Origin: Candidatus Moraniibacteriota bacterium
Lineage (GTDB): Bacteria; Patescibacteriota; Minisyncoccia; Moranbacterales; UBA1568
Length of the DNA: 64,000 nt
Direction of reading: 5' to 3'
Assembly (NCBI GenBank): GCA_016699425.1
Contig: CP064975.1
Span: 923,957-987,956 of the forward strand
Below are positions 2,173-13,250 of the stretch, in pieces. A program made the position numbers and the translations under genes. The notes under the pieces were generated by a model. It worked only from the letters and a program-made list of their open reading frames with translations. It had not been told where the DNA came from and ran no database searches. Each line of letters starts with the position of its first letter. Within the stretch, counting starts at the first letter, position 1.

Positions 2173-3033
2173 TTAGGCTTTGCCGGTTGAACCGAAAAGG
2201 TCCATCTTCCGCTTCACCGCTTCACGGAAACTCTCCCGCGCAGGCATGAGAATTTTCCGGATATCCACCGCTTCGTTTGTCGGCAAGGTCTCACGCAAGG
2301 TCGTGATGAACGCTGTCTTGGTCGCCGTCTCGACATTGAAACAGGCGACGCCGAGCCCGATCACGCGCGCGACTTTTTCTCCTTCCCAATCCGATGCCCC
2401 ATGCAGGACGAGCGGGAGTTTGATGCGCTCACGGATCGCCGCCAACCGATCAAAATCCGGTTCTGATCGTTCAGGAAATGAACCATGCGCATTGCCGATG
2501 CCGACCGCCAGCGTATCCACCCCGGTCGTTCGAACATACGCATCGGCTTGGGCTGGATTCGTCATGTACTTGTCCCAGTCCATATGCTCCATATCCGTCA
2601 CTTCCCCCTTGTACGGCACATTGCCGAGCTCGCCCTGGACGGTCGCGCCCTTGGTATGGGCTTCACGGACGATCGTCGCGGTCGCCTCCATATTTTCTTC
2701 ATAGGGCAGGGTCGAGGCATCCATCATGACCGACTTGAAGCCGATCGCGAGCGCCTCACGGACCACTGCCAGGTTACGCCCATGATCGAGATGGATCGCT
2801 AGCGGGATATCGGGGAAATAAAAGTCGGCGATATTCTTCACGAGATGATACATCGCATGCCCTCCGCCATACTGAAATGTCTTCTCCGTCATTTGTACGA
2901 TGACCGGTGAATGTTTTTCGGCGGCCGCTTCCAGGATGGCCCACGTCGTCTCGAGATTGACAGTATTGAACGCGCCGACGGCATACCCTTTTGTCTGCGC
3001 TTCCGTGAGGATTTTCTTGGCCGAAATAATCAT
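2173..3033 (-). CDS. fba: Class II fructose-bisphosphate aldolase
   Basis: Class II FBA/tagatose-bisphosphate aldolase family motifs (HLDHG, GNAHG...). The track ORF starts at an upstream alternative codon. The internal ATG (MIISAKKIL) at 3033 overlaps the tpiA stop in an ATGA arrangement. Confidence 0.88.
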   Translation of the reverse strand: MIISAKKILTEAQTKGYAVGAFNTVNLETTWAILEAAAEKHSPVIVQMTEKTFQYGGGHAMYHLVKNIADFYFPDIPLAIHLDHGRNLAVVREALAIGFKSVMMDASTLPYEENMEATATIVREAHTKGATVQGELGNVPYKGEVTDMEHMDWDKYMTNPAQADAYVRTTGVDTLAVGIGNAHGSFPERSEPDFDRLAAIRERIKLPLVLHGASDWEGEKVARVIGLGVACFNVETATKTAFITTLRETLPTNEAVDIRKILMPARESFREAVKRKMDLFGSTGKA

Positions 3034-3821
3034 AGTGTTTGCGATACGGGGTGACTGAAGGTATGTTCCGCCTCGAGTAGCATCTTCACGAGTTCGCGCG
3101 GATAGAGACTCTCTCCGCCGACGAGGACACCGGACATCTCTGCTTCCCAAGACACTGACGCGAGAGCCGTCGCTTTGACTGATCCGCCATAGATCACCGT
3201 CATCCGCTCGGCAAACGCCGGATCATAAAGCCCGGAGAACAGCTTACGGAGGTACACCTTCACCTGAAGGATATCCGCGGTCGTCGGCGTCACGCCCGTC
3301 CCGATCGCCCAGCGCGGCTCATAGGCGATGATCACCCGCTGTGCTAAAAGCGGTGAGAGATCGTCGAACACGGTCCGTACCGTTCGCTCAATGACCGTTG
3401 TCGTCTGCTCACGCTGACGTTCCTCTGCCGTCTCGCCGAGGCAGACGATGGGAATGATTCCTTCTTTCAAGGCCAGTCTGGTTTTCTTCGCGACGAGCGC
3501 ATCCGTCTCACCGGCATACGCCCGGCGTTCGCTGTGACCGAGGATGACATGTCCGACACCGGCATCGCGCAGCATCGCAGGAGAGATCTCGCCCGTGAAG
3601 GCGCCTTTCAGTTCCCACCCCATTGTCTGTGCGGCCAATGTGAAACCCGCTGGCAAATGACTGAAAGCGTGGAGATGGATCGCGGGTGGCGCGATGATCC
3701 CCCGGCTATGGGCGAAGGTCTTGCCTACGGACTCCCGCCGCAGCTGGGACAAGTACTCATTCACCTCAGTATGGGTGAGGAGGTGCATCTTGAGATTGCC
3801 GATGACGAGAAACGGTGACAT
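3030..3821 (-). CDS. tpiA: Triosephosphate isomerase
   Basis: 263 aa. Contains IAYEPRWAIGTG (TIM active-site signature) and GHSERR. Confidence 0.93.
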   Translation of the reverse strand: MSPFLVIGNLKMHLLTHTEVNEYLSQLRRESVGKTFAHSRGIIAPPAIHLHAFSHLPAGFTLAAQTMGWELKGAFTGEISPAMLRDAGVGHVILGHSERRAYAGETDALVAKKTRLALKEGIIPIVCLGETAEERQREQTTTVIERTVRTVFDDLSPLLAQRVIIAYEPRWAIGTGVTPTTADILQVKVYLRKLFSGLYDPAFAERMTVIYGGSVKATALASVSWEAEMSGVLVGGESLYPRELVKMLLEAEHTFSHPVSQTL

Positions 3822-3824
3822 AGG

Positions 3825-4895
3825 CTACGCGCTCTCGAGTTTCTCCCGCAGGAAGGCGGCCGCCGTTTCCGGCTCGATCGAAGAGATCTCAATCCCCGTG
3901 GACAGCTCGAATCCTGCCCAGGTCGCTGTGTGCGGTGCGATCTCGATATGCCACTGAAAATGCGGGTATTCCTTGCCATCGCAAGGTGCGGTGTAGAGAT
4001 AAAAGTTGTACGCCGGATCGCCGAGACCACGATACAGTACTTGGAGCGCCTTCTGAAGGGCCTCACCGCAGGCGAATTTCTCCTCATCGGTAATGCGCTC
4101 GAAGTACGGGTTCGGACGCTTTCCCACGACCCACAATTCAAACGCGACCCGTGAAGCATACGGCGCAAAAACAACGAAGTCATCGTTTTCGAAGACGAGC
4201 CGTTTCTTTTTCTCGCGCTCATACTCAACCATTGTCCCGTAGACCCGCTGCCGGTGGCTCTTGTAGAAACGCTCCGCCCCCGAGAGAATCGACTCGACAT
4301 AGGGCGCGACTACCGGGATCGCCATCAGCTGCGAATGCGGATGCGGGACAGACGCCCCGGCCTCGTGGCCGTGATTATGGAAAATCTGAATATAATTCAC
4401 GCTCGCCTTGTTCATGAGCGAGAGGTAGCGATCCTGATAGGCATCGAGGAGTTCGGCCACTTGCCAGGTCTCGAGTTCGGCGATCGAGCGCAAGGCATCG
4501 CGCGTCACGATCACCTCATGGTACCCGACCGCTGACATGCCGAAATATGGACCGTCCGCGAGCGACTTGGGTCGCCCGTTCGAGCGCGACACGGCCGGAA
4601 ACTTATTCGGGAAGACACGCAAGCTCCAATCCCCGTCGGGACGCATATAGATGAGCATATCCTCCTCTTGGCCACTCGCTTTTGGGTCTTCGAAAATATC
4701 CGGACTCTCTATGCCCGTCACTCGGGGCGGCGTGACGAAATCATCCGGCCGCTTCCCTCGGGCGGTTGCGATGATGACCCAGTCCCCCGTCACGATATCC
4801 TGCCGGAGTTCTGATGTGGATCGCTGTTTTTTATCTTGTGACTTCTCTGCTTCGCCTGCCATGGCTTTTGTTCTTGTGTGTTTTTGGGTTCTCAC
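3825..4895 (-). CDS. galT: Galactose-1-phosphate uridylyltransferase family protein (HIT-like GalT)
   Basis: 356 aa. Two half-domains with an HPHSQ (HxHxQ-type) nucleotidyl-transfer motif and GalT-like spacing. Confidence 0.75.
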   Translation of the reverse strand: MRTQKHTRTKAMAGEAEKSQDKKQRSTSELRQDIVTGDWVIIATARGKRPDDFVTPPRVTGIESPDIFEDPKASGQEEDMLIYMRPDGDWSLRVFPNKFPAVSRSNGRPKSLADGPYFGMSAVGYHEVIVTRDALRSIAELETWQVAELLDAYQDRYLSLMNKASVNYIQIFHNHGHEAGASVPHPHSQLMAIPVVAPYVESILSGAERFYKSHRQRVYGTMVEYEREKKKRLVFENDDFVVFAPYASRVAFELWVVGKRPNPYFERITDEEKFACGEALQKALQVLYRGLGDPAYNFYLYTAPCDGKEYPHFQWHIEIAPHTATWAGFELSTGIEISSIEPETAAAFLREKLESA

Positions 4896-4920
4896 CGATG
4901 CCTCTGTCGGACATTTGTCC

Positions 4921-5685
4921 TCACTGGATCTTATACTGACCAGTCAGGAGTCGCCACTTCGTCTTGAAGAGATCAATCAAGACCTGGATGAAACCATTCG
5001 GACCCGTGAGACTCACCGTTGAGCCCTCCTCATTCATCCAGCGAACGGGGATCTGTTTGATCTTGAAACCAAGCTTCTCCGCTAGAATAATCAGTTCGAA
5101 ATCAAAACCGAAGCGGTCCACGACCATCCGACTCGCGACCGCGTCAGCCGCCTTGGCCGAGAGCGCCTTGAAGCCGCATTGCGTATCCGGGAAACTCCAG
5201 AGACCGAGCACAATACGGATGAGCCAGTTACCGCCTTCGCCCATAATTTCACGGTGACGGGGCTGATGGACTTGGATGAAGGAACCCTCGATCTTGCGCG
5301 AACCAATGACGACATCATAGCCTTCCTGAAAGAATGGAAGACAGGCATCGAGATGTGTGATAGCGGTCGAGCCGTCGGCATCGAGAAAGACCCGATACTC
5401 GCCCTTGCCCTCAAGCAGTGCCTGACGCACTACATAGCCCTTGCCATGATTCTCCGGATTATTGATGACGCGGAGGTTCGGAACCGTCAGCGCATAATTG
5501 CTCGCCACAGCGGCTGTGTTGTCGGGCGATCCATCGACGACGACGACGATTTCATACGTGAAGGACTTGCTCTTCAAATAACGGTCAATCTCGAGGAGGT
5601 TGTGCCCGATGCGCTCCCCTTCTTTGTATGCAGGAATCAGGACCGACAGATACGGGGTGGTCTCCATACGGACTAGCTCAATCAA
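4921..5685 (-). CDS. Family 2 glycosyltransferase (dolichyl-phosphate sugar synthase-like)
   Basis: 254 aa. Starts LSVLIPAYKE and contains VVVDGSPDNT and DAD motifs typical of GT2/DPM-synthase-like enzymes. Confidence 0.8.
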   Translation of the reverse strand: MIELVRMETTPYLSVLIPAYKEGERIGHNLLEIDRYLKSKSFTYEIVVVVDGSPDNTAAVASNYALTVPNLRVINNPENHGKGYVVRQALLEGKGEYRVFLDADGSTAITHLDACLPFFQEGYDVVIGSRKIEGSFIQVHQPRHREIMGEGGNWLIRIVLGLWSFPDTQCGFKALSAKAADAVASRMVVDRFGFDFELIILAEKLGFKIKQIPVRWMNEEGSTVSLTGPNGFIQVLIDLFKTKWRLLTGQYKIQ

Positions 5686-5745
5686 ATCTTATAGCTTTAT
5701 TGTACCATAATCAGCTTCTGCAAGCATCGAAGATGCCGGAAATTG

Positions 5746-5816
5746 TCGGGCTGCCGGGAATCGAACCCGGCCTACGTGCACCCCATGCACGCGTACTGCC
5801 GATATACTACAGCCCG
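5746..5816 (-). tRNA. tRNA-Pro (anticodon GGG)
   Basis: The reverse complement folds as a cloverleaf. It has a 7-bp acceptor stem (CGGGCTG/CAGCCCG), anticodon stem CGTGC/GCACG with loop ATGGGGT, and T-arm CCGGG-TTCGATT-CCCGG. No CCA is encoded. Confidence 0.8.
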
Positions 5817-6291
5817 TATTTTTGTTCCTCTCGATTGCCTTCTGAAACACAGTGAGGATATCAAACCGAAGGAGAAATGAAAAGGAGCCCGGATCGCGGT
5901 ACTCCTTCCTTCGCTGCAGCGCAGCTAGGTTCGCCACGGGTAGTGGCTGTGTCGCTCGTTCACGACTCTACACGTTCTTCTTCGAATCCGCACGATGCGC
6001 TTGCCAGCGCGTCGAGGGCTGAGTGCGGAGGTTGGGATTGGTCACCCCGGAGTCATCCACACACAGCCGTCTATTGATTATCTCGAGCGGCGACAACCAC
6101 TCCCCATCCAGAGCAACGACCGGCAGATCCAGACCACTAAGGTCACCTTCTTGTGCGTTCATTTTGCACTCCTTCTCACAAAACAAGAACCACAGCAGGT
6201 GCATATCTTCCGACAGCACCCACCACCTACTCCTCGATCACCCACCGAGAAATATACGCTATCCTATACCTCCTGGATTTTTTTGCAAGGG

Positions 6292-6321
6292 GATGAAAAA
6301 AGGACCCTGTCAAGGGCCCTG
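6292..6321 (-). terminator. Rho-independent terminator downstream of ndk
   Basis: Minus-strand reading shows GGGCCCTTGACAGGGTCC followed by TTTTTTT, directly after the ndk stop. Confidence 0.6.
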
Positions 6322-6339
6322 ATTTCCCGGCTTGGAGAC

Positions 6340-6948
6340 TTACTCCAGAATGCCGTCGAGGTTCACATCGTAGAGGATTTGCTCTTGGACGAGACGGTAG
6401 TTGATGAGCTCTTCGGGCGTAAACCAGATGGCAATTTCACGCTCGGCTTCCTCAGGACTGTCAGAACAATGAATGAGGTTACGCACGGCCCGGTTGTCGA
6501 TGGCCGATAGACTGTAGGTGTCGATGGTGAAATCCCCGCGGATCGTCCCGACATCGGATGTACTGGGTTCGGTACTCCCCACCAGCTTGGTCGTGATTGC
6601 GACTGAACCCAGCCCCTCCACTACGAGACCGAGTACTGGTCCGGATGTCATGTATTCGACGATGGTACGGATGATGTCTTTGCCGTATTCAAGCGGCTCC
6701 TGCTCAATCGGCAGATCATGAGCCTTGCGGTCATCGATGACGCGCTGCCCCTTCTTCAGATACCACTCCTCGTTCTTCTGATAGTGTTCCCAGCACTGTT
6801 CCTCTTTGGCGACCATGAATTTCACCGCCACGAGCTTCAACCCAGTCCGCTCGATCCGGCGGATGACCTCTCCGATGAGTGAGCGTTGGATGGCGTCTGG
6901 CTTCAGGATCACGAGAGTGCGTTCTTTCTTCGGATGTGCGACAGCCAT
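6340..6948 (-). CDS. ndk: Nucleoside diphosphate kinase (long form with insertion)
   Basis: 202 aa. Contains ERTLVILKPD and NLIHCSD (active-site His region). It is longer than the typical about 140 aa form. Confidence 0.88.
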   Translation of the reverse strand: MAVAHPKKERTLVILKPDAIQRSLIGEVIRRIERTGLKLVAVKFMVAKEEQCWEHYQKNEEWYLKKGQRVIDDRKAHDLPIEQEPLEYGKDIIRTIVEYMTSGPVLGLVVEGLGSVAITTKLVGSTEPSTSDVGTIRGDFTIDTYSLSAIDNRAVRNLIHCSDSPEEAEREIAIWFTPEELINYRLVQEQILYDVNLDGILE

Positions 6949-7077
6949 AGACCTTCCTTTTAGAGAAAACGATTACGCTGGGACTGTAACACGAAAGGTT
7001 GTTTTCTGCAAGACGTGACACTCCTTCTCGGAAAACAACACCCAACAGACGGTGTAGATGCCTTACGAGACGCAGGT

Positions 7078-9415: not shown

Positions 9416-9868
9416 TTACTGATCGAATTTCTCGAGCACTCGGCGGAAGCCCCGCGCGCTGCCGAACGACTGGTAGACGCTCGCGAAGCGGATATACGCC
9501 ACCTCATCGAGGTCTTTCAATTTATCCAAAATGATCGTGCCGATATCGCGGCTGGCGATTTGATTCTTCTTCGCCCGTTCAGCAATCGTGTATTCGATCG
9601 CCCCCAAGAGCTTCTCCAGTCGATCATCCCCCATCGGCCGCTTTTCGAAGGCCTTGCGCAGTCCCACTTCGATCTTCTTGCGCTCATAGGGTTGATGCGA
9701 GCCGTCTTTCTTCACCACCGACACCCGAAAGAGCTCGGCCTGTTCATGCGTCGAGAATCGCGCCTGGCACGACAGACACTCGCGGCGCCGGCGGATGACT
9801 CGGCCTTCAAGCGTCTCGCGTGAGTCCGTTACTTTGGATTCGGGGTGATTGCAAAAGGGGCAGCGCAT
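9416..9868 (-). CDS. nrdR: Transcriptional repressor NrdR
   Basis: 150 aa. Has an MRCPFCNHPESKVTDSRE...C..C zinc ribbon plus an ATP-cone domain. Confidence 0.93.
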   Translation of the reverse strand: MRCPFCNHPESKVTDSRETLEGRVIRRRRECLSCQARFSTHEQAELFRVSVVKKDGSHQPYERKKIEVGLRKAFEKRPMGDDRLEKLLGAIEYTIAERAKKNQIASRDIGTIILDKLKDLDEVAYIRFASVYQSFGSARGFRRVLEKFDQ

Positions 9869-9956
9869 AGGGACTCAGGGGTTAGCTTGTAGCTGGTAGG
9901 GGGGGGTTAGGGGGATGCGAATCAAAGATCGTCCTTCACTCTAGCAAATTGGCGTC

Positions 9957-9990
9957 AAAAGAAAAGGCCGCCCAGTGTTGCTAGGCGGCG
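9957..9990 (-). terminator. Terminator-like hairpin (copy 1 of an identical 34-nt element)
   Basis: Minus-strand reading shows a GCCGCC...GGCGGC stem followed by TTTTCTTTT, directly downstream of the 324-aa ORF. It is identical to 11057..11090. Confidence 0.5.
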
Positions 9991-10012
9991 GAGAGGGAAC
10001 GAGGCCCTCACT

Positions 10013-10987
10013 TCAGCCGAGCCGAAAGGAACGCGGTGGCTTCGGCCGTGAGACGACCGTGATCCGGCGCGGACTTCCCTTCCCCTCAGGGTAGTAGTCT
10101 CGTGTGAGCACGGTCTGATCGCAGCGGAAGGCGAGCGGACATGGGGCACAGCTCCGCCGAAAGCGGTTAATGGTCGCAGGATCCTTCCAATCAGTCTCGG
10201 GCTCATTGTTAGCCCACCGGCAGCCCTCGCGCGAGAGGATAAAGAGTAGCTCCGAGAACTTGACCGGATCCACTCCGGGGAAACGATCGAGGTAGGCCCG
10301 ACCGATAGCATCCCCCGCCGCCATGATCGATTTCGGATTGTACGAGCCATTCTCGAGCTTGAACATACCCGTCCCGATGAGGACTCGCGTATGATGAAAG
10401 TCCACCGGAAACGACATGCTGATCCGCCGGATGAAACCCGCCTGCATCAGGTTGATGGTGAGGAGGGCGCACATCTTCTCCTGAAACCCGTAGAACCCAC
10501 GTTCTCTGAGCGGTAGGGTGTCGTCGCCCTTGTTCATCACGCGGTCCCTGACCTCAACTTCGGTCGTGAGGCCCTCGTAGACCGCGAGGATATCACCACC
10601 CCAGGCGATGAGGATCTCGGAATTGCGCCGCCAAGCTTCGCCATAATGCTGCTGGGGCGGGACCGTCCCGAATACTTGCTCCAGTCGCCGATCAATTTCC
10701 GCTGCTGAAAACTTGGCAGCTTCATACGGATCAAAGAGCTCGGGGTGTTTCGCACGAAGCTCGATGGCTCGTGCGGTCGCCATATGGCTCTGCACCTTGC
10801 CCCGAAGGAGGTGCGTGGTATAGAACCAGTCATTGGCGGTCCAGTCAGGGAGCGCCTGCACATCCACCATGTGATGCGGCACTCGAGCGAGATGTTCGGG
10901 TTGATAGGGAAATTCCTGCCGCCGATAGGCGTCGAGAAGCAAGGCGAAATTGCCATACACTCGCTTCCAATTGATAAGGTTCTCCAT
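10013..10987 (-). CDS. Hypothetical protein (324 aa) with C-terminal CxxCx5C motif
   Basis: Long ORF with GC3-biased codon usage consistent with its neighbours. No recognisable family motif by eye. C-terminus reads SCAPCPLAFRCDQ. Confidence 0.55.
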   Translation of the reverse strand: MENLINWKRVYGNFALLLDAYRRQEFPYQPEHLARVPHHMVDVQALPDWTANDWFYTTHLLRGKVQSHMATARAIELRAKHPELFDPYEAAKFSAAEIDRRLEQVFGTVPPQQHYGEAWRRNSEILIAWGGDILAVYEGLTTEVEVRDRVMNKGDDTLPLRERGFYGFQEKMCALLTINLMQAGFIRRISMSFPVDFHHTRVLIGTGMFKLENGSYNPKSIMAAGDAIGRAYLDRFPGVDPVKFSELLFILSREGCRWANNEPETDWKDPATINRFRRSCAPCPLAFRCDQTVLTRDYYPEGKGSPRRITVVSRPKPPRSFRLG

Positions 10988-11056
10988 GACACTCCCCTTT
11001 CGGAAGTAGTTTGGTTGCCTCCGATTATACAGGAAAGTACCAGTAGGTCAACGCGA

Positions 11057-11090
11057 AAAAGAAAAGGCCGCCCAGTGTTGCTAGGCGGCG
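11057..11090 (-). terminator. Terminator-like hairpin (copy 2 of an identical 34-nt element)
   Basis: Same 34-nt sequence as 9957..9990 (AAAAGAAAAGGCCGCCCAGTGTTGCTAGGCGGCG). It lies directly downstream of the NADAR gene. Confidence 0.5.
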
Positions 11091-11114
11091 TGGATGACAG
11101 ACCGAGAGGCCTGC

Positions 11115-11786
11115 TCATGCAGGAAAGACTTCGTCTCGAATTTCCTCCCAGATCTTGCCAAGCCAATTCTGGCCGGACCAGTTCGGACCACGACCCCAGT
11201 AGTCATCCCTATGCGTGTCCTCGACCAACGTCATTCCATGACTCCTGGAAAGTATCTTCCGCACGTACTCGTGCTGGGCAAGCTTGGCTTGGAGGATTTC
11301 TTTCATCACGGGGCGCTTGACTTCATCCCAATCAAGACGGATATCGTCTTGATACATGGACTCATCCCCGATCTTCTTTGCCTCGTGAGCCGAACGCGCT
11401 TGGAAGATACGTTCGATAATGTCCGGTCGATCGTACTTAGCCGCCTGGTAGGCGTGTTCGACGGTCGACCAAACTCGGTCGCGCCATTCCACAGCGTAGG
11501 CCGAGAAATTTTGGAGGCAATCCCACTCGTCGGCATAAAAGAGTGCGCAGTCCCTCCCGAGGAAGTTTTGAACCGCCGGTACCTCCTTCATCAGAAGTTC
11601 CATGACCTGTTCGTCGATGATGGGGTCGGCCGGCCAGGTATCCTTGGATCCGCGTTCGAGACGGAGATGGGCGATGAGGATGGCTAGCGCAGTTGGCATA
11701 CCGACCAGTTTAGCTGCGTTACCCAGCCCCCAGTAACCATCCGATTCGATCTTCTGAGCGGCAACCTGAAGCAATAGAACGTCCAT
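11115..11786 (-). CDS. NADAR-domain protein (YbiA-like N-glycosidase family, DUF1768)
   Basis: Contains ...LQNFSAYAVEW...VEHAYQAAKY...WGRG...NWLGKIWEEIRDE, which fits the NADAR family. The track ORF starts at a TTG at 11867. The ATG at 11786 (MDVLLLQ) has an AGGAG 8 nt upstream. Confidence 0.75.
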   Translation of the reverse strand: MDVLLLQVAAQKIESDGYWGLGNAAKLVGMPTALAILIAHLRLERGSKDTWPADPIIDEQVMELLMKEVPAVQNFLGRDCALFYADEWDCLQNFSAYAVEWRDRVWSTVEHAYQAAKYDRPDIIERIFQARSAHEAKKIGDESMYQDDIRLDWDEVKRPVMKEILQAKLAQHEYVRKILSRSHGMTLVEDTHRDDYWGRGPNWSGQNWLGKIWEEIRDEVFPA

Positions 11787-12007
11787 GAGAAAGTCTCCTG
11801 GGTTGATTGGAAAAGGAGGCAACGTATGTCTCCGCACAAAAACCATGTCCGAAATCGGACTGCTCAAGATATCACGCCTCCACTCCTCTGTCTACCCACA
11901 CTCCCACTTTGTTGCAGCGCACACAGTCGTCATCCCGTCTCTCTAAAGACAAATGAAAACCGATCCCACATTTTGTGAGACCGGCTGCAGGACGATACCT
12001 GCGAATG

Positions 12008-12211
12008 TCAACGCGCCGCTTCCGATTGCGGTGGTTCGACGGGTTGTTCTCTCCACGCCACCCAGTGAGGATTCTTGGCAACCGTTTCCTCTAAATCTCT
12101 GGCAGAGAACGCATTCAGGAGGATGTTCGCCAACTGCTTCAAACAGCTCTGCTCCGTTCCGTAGTCGATACCACATTCCGCTTTTTGGAACGTATTGTGC
12201 TTATTGGCCAT
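12008..12211 (-). CDS. Small hypothetical protein (67 aa)
   Basis: ATG lies 10 nt downstream of the preceding gene's stop, suggesting possible translational coupling. No recognisable motif. Confidence 0.25.
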   Translation of the reverse strand: MANKHNTFQKAECGIDYGTEQSCLKQLANILLNAFSARDLEETVAKNPHWVAWREQPVEPPQSEAAR

Positions 12212-12220
12212 CCGGAGCTC

Positions 12221-13036
12221 TTATCGGATATACGGGCTATCGCTTGAATTGCTGCAGAACGCCAGTACGAACTCTTCGCGAGTGACAGATCCCTTGCGCC
12301 AGTTCTGATCCCGCTCTTCACCCCCGAAGAGAATACTCATACTAACGGGGATGCCGTGATACTGACCGACTGCTATACCATGGTCATTCTGGCCGATATA
12401 GAGCATAAGAAGCTCGCTCGTCACTGCCTCGATATCCATCCGCCACTCCACATCCGGCACATAACGTCTCGCGGAAGCGAGCTCGGCTGCGACATCTATC
12501 TTCTTATTCCCATACGTCTGCCAACGCGGCATAGTGACAGTCCAACTTTGGACAAAGGGGTCAAAAGAATCGTAACCGCCTTCATCTCGTGGGTATGTCG
12601 CCATCCCCTCAAAAATTTCGGTTGCGTTCCGATGGATCGCACCTTTGGCATCTTGCGGTTTGATGCCGATACCGTCACCGAAACGCTTCAGGTGCAAGAC
12701 GACGCCCGTCAAGCCGATGAAGATCTCCGTGGCATTGCCATGCTGCAGCTCATTGGCGATAGCCTTGATGCTGTCAGTCCCGAAAATATCCTTGCCGTTA
12801 CAGCCGGCCTGGATACCTTCGATGAGGGATTTAATCACCGCCTCGGTGTCTCCATCCTTCTTCGCGACGTTTTGTCGGATGTGCCGGCCGAGGTACTCGC
12901 TGATGATGTGTCGCACACGTTCTTCCCCGAACAGCTCTGGGGAACGATATGAAGCGAAGACATAGTCGAGCAGAAACGGGTACTCGTGGCGTCGCTTTTC
13001 CAAGATTGGTTCGTGATACTTATTAAGCGTAGTCAT
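12221..13036 (-). CDS. Hypothetical protein (271 aa) with internal duplicated motif
   Basis: Clean long ORF. Contains two copies of H-x-NATEIF-x-G (QHGNATEIFIG and IHRNATEIFEG). No family recognised. Confidence 0.55.
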   Translation of the reverse strand: MTTLNKYHEPILEKRRHEYPFLLDYVFASYRSPELFGEERVRHIISEYLGRHIRQNVAKKDGDTEAVIKSLIEGIQAGCNGKDIFGTDSIKAIANELQHGNATEIFIGLTGVVLHLKRFGDGIGIKPQDAKGAIHRNATEIFEGMATYPRDEGGYDSFDPFVQSWTVTMPRWQTYGNKKIDVAAELASARRYVPDVEWRMDIEAVTSELLMLYIGQNDHGIAVGQYHGIPVSMSILFGGEERDQNWRKGSVTREEFVLAFCSNSSDSPYIR

Positions 13037-13250
13037 GTTAAAGATCTCCGGAGAGAGTGATGAGTGCGGTTGCCCGCAGACCGCCCGGTTGCCCGGCCGG
13101 ATACGATAGGAGGATCCCGTCGTACCATGAGTACCGTAAAAGTCCTTACGCTACCGAGGTCGACATGATACGCAGTTCACGGTATTGAACACCAGGCCAG
13201 CCATATAGTCAACAACGAACAAAAGCGCCCCTCTCGGAGCGTTTTGACTA

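What the first reader, a model, noticed from the sequence alone, without database searches (positions are those of the whole stretch)
9955..11114. Two-gene unit (324-aa hypothetical plus NADAR) in which each gene is followed by an identical 34-nt terminator hairpin
The sequence AAAAGAAAAGGCCGCCCAGTGTTGCTAGGCGGCG occurs twice, at 9957..9990 and 11057..11090. In both cases it sits immediately 3' of a minus-strand gene. Read on the minus strand it is a GC stem followed by a T-run.

Exact repetition of a terminator within 1.1 kb suggests a recent duplication or insertion of a gene plus terminator cassette, or a genome-wide repeated terminator module.

The genes are:
- A NADAR-domain protein. This family has been linked to reversal of nucleobase ADP-ribosylation and to NAD/ADP-ribose metabolism.
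- An unrecognised 324-aa protein ending in CxxCx5C.

A function for the partner in ADP-ribosylation, toxin-like activity or nucleoside salvage is worth testing.
Basis: seen in the sequence. Interest (0 to 1): 0.55.

Follow-up and report, generated by a model that had tools for sequence, protein, structure and literature searches.

The report
Duplicated terminator brackets inserted glycosylase gene
An exact 34-base transcription-stop hairpin occurs twice because a self-contained gene module for an unnamed iron-sulfur, DNA-glycosylase-like enzyme lies beside an unrelated NADAR gene in a swap-prone gap of a tiny (CPR) bacterial genome; the two genes look like chance neighbours, not a working pair.

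Summary
The 34-mer occurs exactly twice in the window (9957-9990 and 11057-11090). On the minus strand each copy is a strong intrinsic terminator, 23-25 nt after a stop codon.

The "two-gene unit" reading does not hold. A near-consensus promoter lies between the NADAR terminator and the 324-aa gene, so the two genes are probably separate transcription units. In eleven related loci the two genes are never adjacent. Relatives carry ftsZ-324-T-nrdR, ftsZ-X-324-T or NADAR-T-nrdR.

The ftsZ-nrdR gap is therefore a variable slot, and this genome holds both alternative occupants. The repeated hairpin has the stem type found after the 324 gene in relatives. The copy after NADAR is therefore a recent local duplicate, and the two copies bracket an 1100-bp promoter-leader-gene-terminator module.

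The 324-aa protein belongs to an unnamed family of about 360 clusters, mostly from CPR bacteria. It has the HhH-GPD DNA-glycosylase fold, an invariant Lys, an Asp that aligns with the AGOG catalytic Asp, and an EndoIII-like four-cysteine loop.

Its promoter and leader are more conserved than its coding sequence. The gene upstream of NADAR is broken by a stop codon.

Overall this is an ordinary rearrangement scar plus a new glycosylase subfamily, of moderate interest.

The parts
13226..13241 (-). ftsZ terminator hairpin (CGCTCCGAGAGGGGCG + CTTTTG). It forms the left border of the variable slot.
   Evidence: The same hairpin follows ftsZ in L001.
12008..13036 (-). 342-codon gene of unknown function, interrupted by an in-frame TAA at 12221-12223. 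The ORF finder lists it as separate 271-aa and 67-aa ORFs. It is a probable pseudogene or a sequencing error.
   Evidence: Read-through translation aligns end to end with intact ~335-aa homologues, which have Tyr at the stop position. The family has no Pfam match and no PDB-fold match. Elsewhere it is solitary and never next to NADAR.
11958..11986 (-). Terminator-like hairpin after the 342-codon gene.
11115..11789 (-). NADAR (YbiA-type) gene with an uncharacterised N-terminal extension of about 80 aa.
   Evidence: PF08719 at 8.7e-27. TIGR02464 scores 95.6 bits against a cut-off of 73.7. Closest homologues are 57-64% identical.
11057..11090 (-). T1, the copy of the 34-nt terminator after NADAR. 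Inferred to be the derived copy.
   Evidence: Its stem is of the type found after the 324 gene in L001, L011 and L013. It differs from the stems found after NADAR in L006 and L008.
11024..11051 (-). Promoter of the 324-aa gene: TTGACC, 16-nt spacer, TATAAT (11 of 12 consensus positions).
   Evidence: The TTG of the -35 and the TATAaT of the -10 are invariant in 8 homologous loci.
10988..11023 (-). Conserved leader CGGAGGCAACCAAACTACTTCCGAAAGGGGAGTGTC, which includes the Shine-Dalgarno sequence GGGGAG.
   Evidence: The -50..-1 region is 84-96% identical to L004, L014 and L024, whose coding sequences are 55-60% identical to the window's. There is a single copy in the window, no Rfam match and no covariation support.
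10013..10987 (-). 324-aa protein with the HhH-GPD glycosylase fold and a C-x23-C-x2-C-x5-C loop. Residues of note are K171, D196, C256, C280, C283 and C289.
   Evidence: AF2 model with pLDDT 88.7. Foldseek top hits are EndoIII, MUTYH and Mig. Invariant residues were found across 92 sequences. D196 aligns with Pae-AGOG D172 (PMC9638937).
9957..9990 (-). T2, the resident copy of the 34-nt terminator after the 324-aa gene, immediately upstream of the nrdR promoter.
   Evidence: Terminators sit at the same position in L001 and L011 with different stem sequences but the same tail.
9938..9946 (-). Inferred nrdR extended -10 promoter, TGCTAGAGT.
   Evidence: Conserved about 15 nt after the T-run in the window, L008 and L011, with a variant in L001. 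The promoter function itself is inferred.
9416..9868 (-). nrdR, the right border of the variable slot.
   Evidence: PF22811 and PF03477. Synteny is shown.

Best explanation
The 34-mer is an intrinsic transcription terminator present in two copies.

The resident copy (T2, 9957-9990) ends the 324-aa gene. It also insulates the nrdR promoter that follows it. A second, exact copy (T1, 11057-11090) ends the NADAR gene.

Between the copies lies a complete, autonomous expression module of 1100 bp start-to-start. It consists of a near-consensus sigma-70-type promoter, a conserved 36-nt leader, the 324-aa ORF and the terminator.

The gap between ftsZ and nrdR is a variable slot in this Moraniibacteriota lineage. 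Some relatives hold the 324 module there and others hold NADAR. This genome holds both, plus a stop-interrupted third gene.

The structure is therefore best read as the scar of a recent local recombination event. That event joined two unrelated single-gene units and copied the 324 gene's own terminator to the 3' end of NADAR.

The route is inferred, not shown. Candidates are:
- one homologous crossover plus one illegitimate crossover at the terminator T-runs between slot variants;
- template switching at the hairpin;
- integration of a circular module through the 34-bp identity.

The genes are probably transcribed separately and are not a functional pair.

The 324-aa protein is most likely a [4Fe-4S] DNA glycosylase/AP-lyase of the HhH-GPD superfamily, with Lys171 as nucleophile and Asp196 as catalytic acid. 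Its substrate is unknown.
For: Terminator:
- Exact 34-nt repeat with strong hairpins and U-tracts after both stop codons.
- Five terminators at equivalent positions in relatives fold equally well (-15 to -20 kcal/mol) with different stem sequences and the same tail.

Separate units:
- A TTGACC-16-TATAAT promoter lies between T1 and the 324 start codon. Its -35 and -10 elements are conserved in 8 loci.

Variable slot:
- L001: ftsA-ftsZ-324-T-nrdR-comEC.
- L011: ftsZ-160aa-398aa-324-T-nrdR.
- L013: ftsZ-AAA_33-71aa-324-T.
- L006/L007: ftsZ-NADAR-T-nrdR.
- L008: response regulator-NADAR-T-nrdR.
- Housekeeping identities confirm these loci are relatives.
- The 324 gene appears without NADAR in L002, L004, L014 and L024-L027. 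NADAR appears without 324 in L010.

Direction of copying:
- The window's stem (GCCGCC...GGGCGGC) matches the post-324 terminators of L001, L011 and L013. It does not match the post-NADAR ones of L006 and L008.

Recency:
- The two copies are identical, whereas orthologous stems differ between genomes.

Protein:
- AF2 model with pLDDT 88.7 and pTM 0.85.
- All significant Foldseek PDB hits are HhH-GPD enzymes, with EndoIII best at 2.5e-4.
- K171 and the four Cys are invariant, and D196 is at least 90% conserved, in 92 sequences reaching down to ~21% identity.
- The family profile hits only Pae-AGOG in the PDB (E = 0.0022), aligning D196 with catalytic D172.
- The CxxCx5C motif aligns with the EndoIII cluster loop.

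Feasibility:
- Natural competence and recombination have been shown in CPR bacteria (PMC10633639), and comEC lies next to the slot.
Against: - The copy number of the 34-mer in the other 95% of the 1.2-Mb genome could not be checked. The genome is absent from the searchable collections.
- No population variant or donor sequence was found, so the recombination route is unresolved. No microhomology beyond the T-run and no second flanking repeat could be shown.
- Transcription start sites and termination are predicted, not measured. Read-through from NADAR into the 324 gene cannot be excluded.
- Both slot occupants hydrolyse N-glycosidic bonds, which leaves room for a functional connection.
- The Lys171 assignment rests on position and invariance, not on a residue-level alignment.
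- No Pfam HhH-GPD model matches the protein.
- GC3 differences between the genes are small.
Confidence: 0.62

Rival explanations
1. NADAR and the 324-aa protein form a functional pair. Examples would be reversal plus excision of ADP-ribosylated DNA bases, or a toxin-antitoxin-like unit.
For: The genes are adjacent and on the same strand. Both belong to families that cleave N-glycosidic bonds. NADARs reverse guanine ADP-ribosylation (PMC11543638 and PMC11125620). In relatives, either gene can occupy the position directly upstream of nrdR.
Against: The adjacency occurs in this genome only, among eleven distinct loci. A terminator and a conserved promoter lie between the genes. No ART or toxin was recognised nearby by Pfam, PADLOC or fold search. 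The slot also hosts unrelated genes.
Confidence: 0.07
2. The 34-mer is a genome-wide repeated terminator or REP-like element, and two copies happen to lie close together.
For: The full genome could not be searched. The T-run motif TTTTCTTTT recurs after several genes in related loci.
Against: The 64-kb window holds only these two copies, even at 3 mismatches, and they are 1.1 kb apart. Other terminators in the window have unrelated stems. In relatives a similar hairpin occurs once, at the orthologous site. A degenerate pattern found no match in 185,579 genomes.
Confidence: 0.1
3. The hairpin is a site-specific recombination site (att- or attC-like). The 324 module is then a cassette moved by a recombinase encoded elsewhere.
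For: An 1100-bp single-gene module flanked by exact 34-bp direct repeats that contain an inverted repeat is what Campbell-type integration produces. The gene sits in many unrelated contexts, always with its own promoter.
Against: Other copies of the module are not flanked by such repeats, and their terminators differ in sequence. The hairpin lacks the integron core GTTRRRY, as read directly from the sequence. The module carries its own promoter, unlike integron cassettes. No recombinase was seen next to it. The protein has no match on plasmids or phages.
Confidence: 0.08
4. NADAR-T-324-T-nrdR is ancestral. Relatives lost one gene or the other, and the two terminators stay identical through gene conversion.
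For: Recombination between the direct repeats would delete exactly the 324 module. That would give the NADAR-T-nrdR arrangement seen in L006 and L008.
Against: Orthologous terminator stems diverge quickly between genomes, so long-term identity of a 34-nt tract with unrelated flanks is unlikely. NADAR and 324 similarities are discordant with the housekeeping genes. Four relatives place other genes, or none, upstream of the 324 promoter.
Confidence: 0.1
5. The repeat is an assembly or polishing artefact of the metagenome-assembled genome.
For: The sequence comes from a MAG. A nearby gene has an in-frame stop that could be a sequencing error.
Against: Both flanking genes are intact and have homologues. 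The junctions coincide with functional boundaries: stop codon, terminator, then promoter. The contig is 1.2 Mb long.
Confidence: 0.03

Closest known systems
Rho-independent (intrinsic) terminators
   Same: A G+C-rich 9-bp stem with a 5-nt loop and a U-rich tail, 23-25 nt after the stop codons on the coding strand. Relatives keep the hairpin while changing its sequence.
   Different: Two exact copies lie 1.1 kb apart and bracket a whole gene module. Termination itself was not measured.
Endonuclease III / MutY (HhH-GPD glycosylases with a [4Fe-4S] cluster loop)
   Same: These are the best structural matches: 8a5f at 2.5e-4, 3n5n and 1kea. The family has four conserved Cys, with the last three spaced C-x2-C-x5-C and aligned to the EndoIII loop. 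An invariant Lys and a conserved Asp sit in helix-hairpin-helix / "GPD" positions.
   Different: There is no sequence-level match to Pfam HhH-GPD or NCBIfam models. The first Cys spacing is 23 residues rather than 6. The protein has about 100 extra residues, and TM-scores are only 0.45-0.6. The hairpin is GFYGF-like rather than LPGVG.
AGOG, the archaeal 8-oxoguanine glycosylase/lyase (PF09171; PDB 1xqo)
   Same: AGOG is the only PDB sequence hit of the family profile (E = 0.0022). The motif P-V-D-F/Y-H/R aligns, with D196 matching the catalytic D172 (PMC9638937). Three distant family members give weak AGOG hits.
   Different: The Pfam scores (15.8-16.9 bits) fall below the gathering score of 26.1, and the window protein gives no hit at all. 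By my own knowledge AGOG has no Fe-S cluster; this was not checked here.
Qng1 / DUF2419, the queuosine-5'-monophosphate nucleosidase
   Same: Same superfamily fold and similar length. Foldseek E-values are 7e-3 to 5e-2.
   Different: It is a weaker match than EndoIII and MutY. There is no Pfam hit. The four-Cys loop and the basic C-terminal tail point to DNA binding.
DarT-NADAR and YarT-YbiA toxin-antitoxin operons
   Same: A NADAR/YbiA-type gene is present.
   Different: No ADP-ribosyltransferase neighbour is present. In relatives NADAR is solitary. The neighbouring proteins show no ART features.
Integron gene cassettes / Campbell-type insertions flanked by direct repeats
   Same: A single gene is bounded by identical hairpin-containing direct repeats in a locus whose content varies between strains.
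   Different: The module has its own promoter and a 34-nt site. There is no GTTRRRY core, no integrase nearby, and no similar flanking repeats at other copies.

Membership tests
Intrinsic terminator | G+C-rich stem-loop followed directly by a U-tract on the transcribed strand | tested here: met
   9-bp stem with 7 G-C pairs, 5-nt loop, then CUUUUCUUUU. Free energy is -17.5 kcal/mol with z = -4.8.
Intrinsic terminator | Position just downstream of a stop codon, with the hairpin kept at orthologous sites | tested here: met
   Stems start 23 and 25 nt after the stop codons. Five relatives keep a hairpin with different stem sequences.
Intrinsic terminator | Transcripts actually end there | not testable with these tools
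   Needs Term-seq, 3'-RACE or in vitro transcription.
HhH-GPD DNA glycosylase superfamily | Two-domain helical fold with a helix-hairpin-helix | tested here: met
   AF2 model with pLDDT 88.7. The top 33 Foldseek PDB hits are all HhH-GPD-fold proteins, and four have E <= 1e-3.
HhH-GPD DNA glycosylase superfamily | Conserved catalytic Asp at the start of the helix after the HhH | tested here: met
   D196 is at least 90% conserved. It aligns with Pae-AGOG D172, which is essential for catalysis (PMC9638937).
HhH-GPD DNA glycosylase superfamily | Match to the curated sequence models (Pfam PF00730 and NCBIfam nth/mutY) | tested here: not met
   No Pfam or NCBIfam family matches at E <= 1.
Bifunctional glycosylase/AP-lyase (EndoIII/AGOG type) | Catalytic Lys at the C-terminal end of the HhH hairpin | tested here: inconclusive
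   K171 is invariant in 92 sequences. It lies at the start of helix 170-182, 25 residues before D196. No residue-level alignment to K120 or K140 was obtained.
EndoIII/MutY [4Fe-4S] cluster loop | Four Cys with spacing C-x6-C-x2-C-x5-C | tested here: inconclusive
   The four Cys are invariant, but the spacing is C-x23-C-x2-C-x5-C. The last three align to the EndoIII loop. Metal content cannot be tested here.
AGOG (PF09171) | Score above the Pfam gathering threshold | tested here: not met
   The window protein gives no hit. Distant members score 15.8-16.9 bits against a threshold of 26.1.
Qng1 / DUF2419 | Match to the DUF2419 sequence model, with Qng1 as the best structural match | tested here: not met
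   No Pfam hit. Qng1 structures rank below EndoIII and MutY.
NADAR (PF08719), for the upstream gene | Score above the curated thresholds | tested here: met
   PF08719 scores 94.8 bits against 35.1. TIGR02464 scores 95.6 against 73.7.
DarT-NADAR / ART-YbiA toxin-antitoxin operon | An adjacent ADP-ribosyltransferase toxin gene | tested here: not met
   The neighbours are a stop-interrupted protein of unknown fold and an HhH-GPD protein. NADAR homologues are solitary.
Integron cassette | attC with R''/R' core sites (GTTRRRY) and a promoterless ORF | tested here: not met
   Neither strand of the 34-mer contains GTTRRRY (sequence). The ORF has its own conserved promoter.
Integron cassette | An integron integrase (IntI) next to the array | not tested
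   Only the genes from 7 to 16 kb were identified. The rest of the window was not screened for recombinases.

The most novel reading that the evidence does not exclude
In these ultra-small bacteria the ftsZ-nrdR gap may be a dedicated landing pad. Terminator hairpins there would double as recombination sites, so that complete promoter-gene-terminator modules are swapped in and out. The NADAR and the Fe-S glycosylase would be interchangeable or complementary tools against the same DNA-base adducts, such as ADP-ribosylated bases. The ultra-conserved leader would be their shared control element.
Probability: 0.07. Interest if true: 0.7.

Novelty: new variant of a known kind. Interest (0 to 1): 0.36.

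Why it matters
The repeat itself is a small rearrangement scar. It does give a dated, base-resolution snapshot of how single-gene accessory modules accumulate in the streamlined genomes of CPR bacteria, at one hot spot beside essential division and dNTP-control genes.

The more useful product is the 324-aa protein. It defines an unannotated family of about 360 clusters at 50% identity, named only "hypothetical" in the source records. The family combines an AGOG-like catalytic core with an EndoIII-like cysteine loop. It may be a base-excision enzyme in organisms whose DNA repair is poorly known.

Its promoter and leader are more conserved than the protein. That makes them a compact candidate cis-regulatory element that can be tested with a reporter.

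Tried and rejected
- **Sequence models for the 324-aa protein.** Pfam, NCBIfam, PHROGs, PADLOC and PDB sequence searches with the single protein gave no hit. Only a profile of 92 members reached AGOG.
- **Genome-wide copy number.** A degenerate hairpin pattern found nothing in genome contigs, so the source genome is not in that collection.
- **Leader as a regulon signal.** The leader motif was scanned in JGI metagenomes. One true hit lay upstream of a 324 homologue, and two were chance hits. There is no evidence that it precedes other genes.
- **Leader as a structured RNA.** There is no Rfam match. Folding z-scores are only -1.3 to -1.8. Neither the SD-sequestering hairpin nor the alternative upstream hairpin shows covariation. 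This remains unproven rather than refuted, because only 8 sequences were available.
- **A second direct repeat flanking the 342-codon gene and NADAR block.** The sequence after the ftsZ terminator was compared with the sequence after T1. The similarity is not significant (p ~0.64), so the idea was rejected.
- **The 342-codon protein as an ART toxin partner of NADAR.** There is no Pfam, PADLOC or PDB-fold support, and its homologues are never next to NADAR. Rejected.
- **Mobile-element origin.** The protein has no match on plasmids or phages, and no significant match among predicted viral protein structures.
- **Composition.** The 324 gene has a GC3 of 0.70, like its neighbours (0.68-0.74). NADAR (0.64) and the 342-codon gene (0.62) are slightly lower. 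All are within the window's range, so this is not decisive.
Full report
**Observation**

The 34-mer AAAAGAAAAGGCCGCCCAGTGTTGCTAGGCGGCG occurs at 9957-9990 and 11057-11090 without mismatch. No third copy appears at up to 3 mismatches, and none is expected by chance. It is the only exact long direct repeat in the window.

On the minus strand each copy is a 9-bp stem (7 G-C pairs) with a 5-nt loop, followed by CUUUUCUUUU. The free energy is -17.5 kcal/mol with z = -4.8. The stems begin 23 nt after the stop codon of the 324-aa ORF (10013-10987) and 25 nt after that of the NADAR ORF (11115-11789). Identity ends abruptly at both borders, and the flanks are not significantly similar.

**Anatomy of the region**

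All genes lie on the minus strand. In order they are:

- ftsA and ftsZ, with the ftsZ hairpin at 13226-13241
- a 342-codon gene (12008-13036), with a terminator-like hairpin at 11958-11986
- NADAR
- T1
- a promoter TTGACC-16-TATAAT (11051-11024; 11 of 12 consensus positions)
- a 36-nt leader
- the 324-aa ORF
- T2
- nrdR and comEC

The repeat therefore brackets a complete promoter-leader-gene-terminator module of 1100 bp start-to-start. NADAR and the 324-aa gene are predicted to be separate transcription units.

The window comes from a 1.217-Mb contig of a Candidatus Moraniibacteriota MAG, a member of the CPR/Patescibacteria.

**Comparative genomics**

The 324-aa gene and NADAR are never adjacent elsewhere.

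| Locus | Arrangement |
|---|---|
| L001 (324 protein 79% identical) | ftsA-ftsZ-324-T-nrdR-comEC |
| L011 / L017 | ftsZ-160aa-398aa-324-T-nrdR |
| L013 | ftsZ-AAA_33 kinase-71aa-324-T |
| L006 / L007 | ftsZ-NADAR-T-nrdR |
| L008 / L009 | response regulator-NADAR-T-nrdR |

Housekeeping identities show that these loci are relatives. NrdR is 63-92% identical, FtsZ 84-92% and ComEC 40-71%.

More distant 324 homologues sit in unrelated contexts without NADAR (L002, L004, L014, L024-L027). One NADAR homologue sits elsewhere without the 324 gene (L010).

The ftsZ-nrdR gap is therefore a variable slot. This genome holds both of its recurrent occupants.

**Which copy is the original**

A terminator with the tail GGCCTTTTCTTTT, followed by a conserved TGCTAGAGT (probably an extended -10 promoter for nrdR), precedes nrdR in every relative, whichever gene lies upstream.

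The stems differ between genomes but all fold strongly, at -15 to -20 kcal/mol. This is the pattern expected of working terminators.

The window's stem (GCCGCC...GGGCGGC) resembles the stems after the 324 gene in L001, L011 and L013. It does not resemble those after NADAR in L006 and L008. L008 is as close to the window as L011 by housekeeping genes. T2 is therefore the resident terminator of the 324 gene, and T1 is a copy of it.

The two copies are identical although orthologous stems diverge between genomes, so the copying was recent.

**How the copy arose**

How the copy arose is inferred, not shown. Three routes would give this product:

- One homologous crossover plus one illegitimate crossover at the T-runs, between slot variants. 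This is homology-facilitated illegitimate recombination, a mechanism I know from the literature on naturally transformable bacteria. CPR bacteria are naturally competent (PMC10633639).
- Template switching at the hairpin during repair.
- Integration of a circularised module through the 34-bp identity.

A candidate second flanking repeat was tested and rejected. The direct repeats predict that recombination between them would delete exactly the 324 module. That would give the NADAR-T-nrdR arrangement seen in L006 and L008.

**The 324-aa protein**

It has no match in Pfam, NCBIfam, PHROGs, PADLOC or PDB sequences. The word-indexed search found 19 close homologues. A profile search found 358 cluster representatives at E <= 1e-3. 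Every sampled member that carries a source name is called "hypothetical", from Moraniibacteriota or Saccharibacteria MAGs.

The AlphaFold model is confident, with pLDDT 88.7 and pTM 0.85. Its top 33 PDB matches are all HhH-GPD-fold proteins. In order, these are Endonuclease III (2.5e-4), MUTYH and Mig thymine glycosylase. DUF2419/Qng1, MagIII and Ogg follow.

Across 92 members, down to ~21% identity, the invariant residues are K171 and C256, C280, C283 and C289. D196, H198 and R201 are at least 90% conserved.

The family profile's only PDB hit is Pyrobaculum AGOG (E = 0.0022). The alignment places D196 on D172, a residue essential for catalysis (PMC9638937). K171 lies at the start of the helix after the hairpin, 25 residues upstream of D196. 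This is where EndoIII and AGOG carry their nucleophilic lysine. This assignment rests on position and invariance.

The first spacing is 23 residues instead of 6.

My best reading is a [4Fe-4S] bifunctional DNA glycosylase/AP-lyase of unknown lesion specificity. A Qng1-like nucleotide hydrolase is the main alternative.

**NADAR and its upstream neighbour**

NADAR is YbiA-type. TIGR02464 scores 95.6 bits against a cut-off of 73.7. It has an uncharacterised N-terminal extension of about 80 aa. Its closest homologues are solitary.

The 271-aa and 67-aa ORFs upstream are one gene. It is broken by a TAA at 12221-12223, where homologues have Tyr. That family has no Pfam match and no PDB-fold match. 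It is never next to NADAR elsewhere. Nothing nearby resembles an ADP-ribosyltransferase.

**Promoter and leader**

The 50 nt before the start codon are 84-96% identical between the window and L004, L014 and L024. The coding sequences of those loci are only 55-60% identical at the nucleotide level and 40-54% at the protein level. Sequence further upstream is at background, about 49%.

The motif is absent from L002/L012 and from L025-L027. In JGI metagenomes the only genuine match preceded a 324 homologue. Two other matches showed no such gene and look like chance.

There is no Rfam family. The predicted hairpin that sequesters the Shine-Dalgarno sequence is not statistically supported, and it shows no covariation with only 8 sequences. 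The element is real as a conserved sequence. Its mode of action (operator, translation signal or small RNA switch) is open.

**Comparison with known systems, and novelty**

The repeat is a standard intrinsic terminator that has been duplicated. The structure is a recombination scar in a variable slot, not a new kind of element.

It does not meet the integron criteria: there is no GTTRRRY core and the module has its own promoter. It does not meet the DarT-NADAR criteria either, because there is no ART.

The protein is a new, unannotated branch of a known superfamily. It combines AGOG-like and EndoIII-like features. It fails the sequence-model membership tests for PF00730, PF09171 and DUF2419.

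**Limits**

- The other 95% of the genome could not be searched for the 34-mer.
- No population data were available.
- Promoters, terminators and enzyme activity are predictions.

Noticed in passing
window 12008-13036 (minus); stop at 12221-12223: The 271-aa and 67-aa ORFs are one 342-codon gene interrupted by an in-frame TAA where intact ~335-aa homologues have Tyr. This is a pseudogene or a sequencing error. The family is restricted to CPR-type contexts, has no Pfam or PDB-fold match, and is solitary elsewhere.
   Followed up: yes
window 10988-11051 (minus); also L004, L014, L024, L013, L011, L001 upstream of the 324 homologues: The promoter and 36-nt leader (TTTCCTGTATAAT-CGGAGGCAACCAAACTACTTCCGAAAGGGGAG) are 84-96% identical in L004, L014 and L024, whose coding sequences are only 55-60% identical to the window's. 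There is no Rfam match and no covariation evidence, and the mode of action is unknown.
   Followed up: partly
window 9869-9930 (minus), between T2 and the nrdR start codon: The nrdR leader carries a C-rich stretch of about 60 nt (…CATCCCCCTAACCCCCCCCTACCAGCTACAAGC…). It is absent from L001, L008 and L011, where the gap from the conserved TGCTAGAGT to the ATG is only about 10-25 nt.
   Followed up: no
L013 (CAZOFS010000003.1), 2173-6981: This record is labelled "uncultured Bdellovibrionales bacterium". Yet it carries an FtsZ 89% identical to this Moraniibacteriota window and the same ftsA-ftsZ-X-324 synteny. The taxonomic label, or the binning, is probably wrong. The same caution applies to L012 and L014.
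   Followed up: partly
window 9900-13250; L001, L006-L008, L011, L013: The ftsZ-nrdR gap is a hot spot for unrelated single-gene insertions. Its contents are: nothing; two unknown proteins; an AAA_33 kinase plus a 71-aa protein; the 342-codon gene plus NADAR; or NADAR alone. comEC lies immediately downstream of nrdR in the window, L001, L006, L008 and L011.
   Followed up: partly
window 11790-11867 (minus): The NADAR ORF can be extended to a TTG start at 11867, giving 250 aa. The source record annotates 223 aa. Only a weak promoter-like site (TAGACA-17-TATCTT, 11894-11866) precedes it, so its true start and promoter are uncertain.
   Followed up: no
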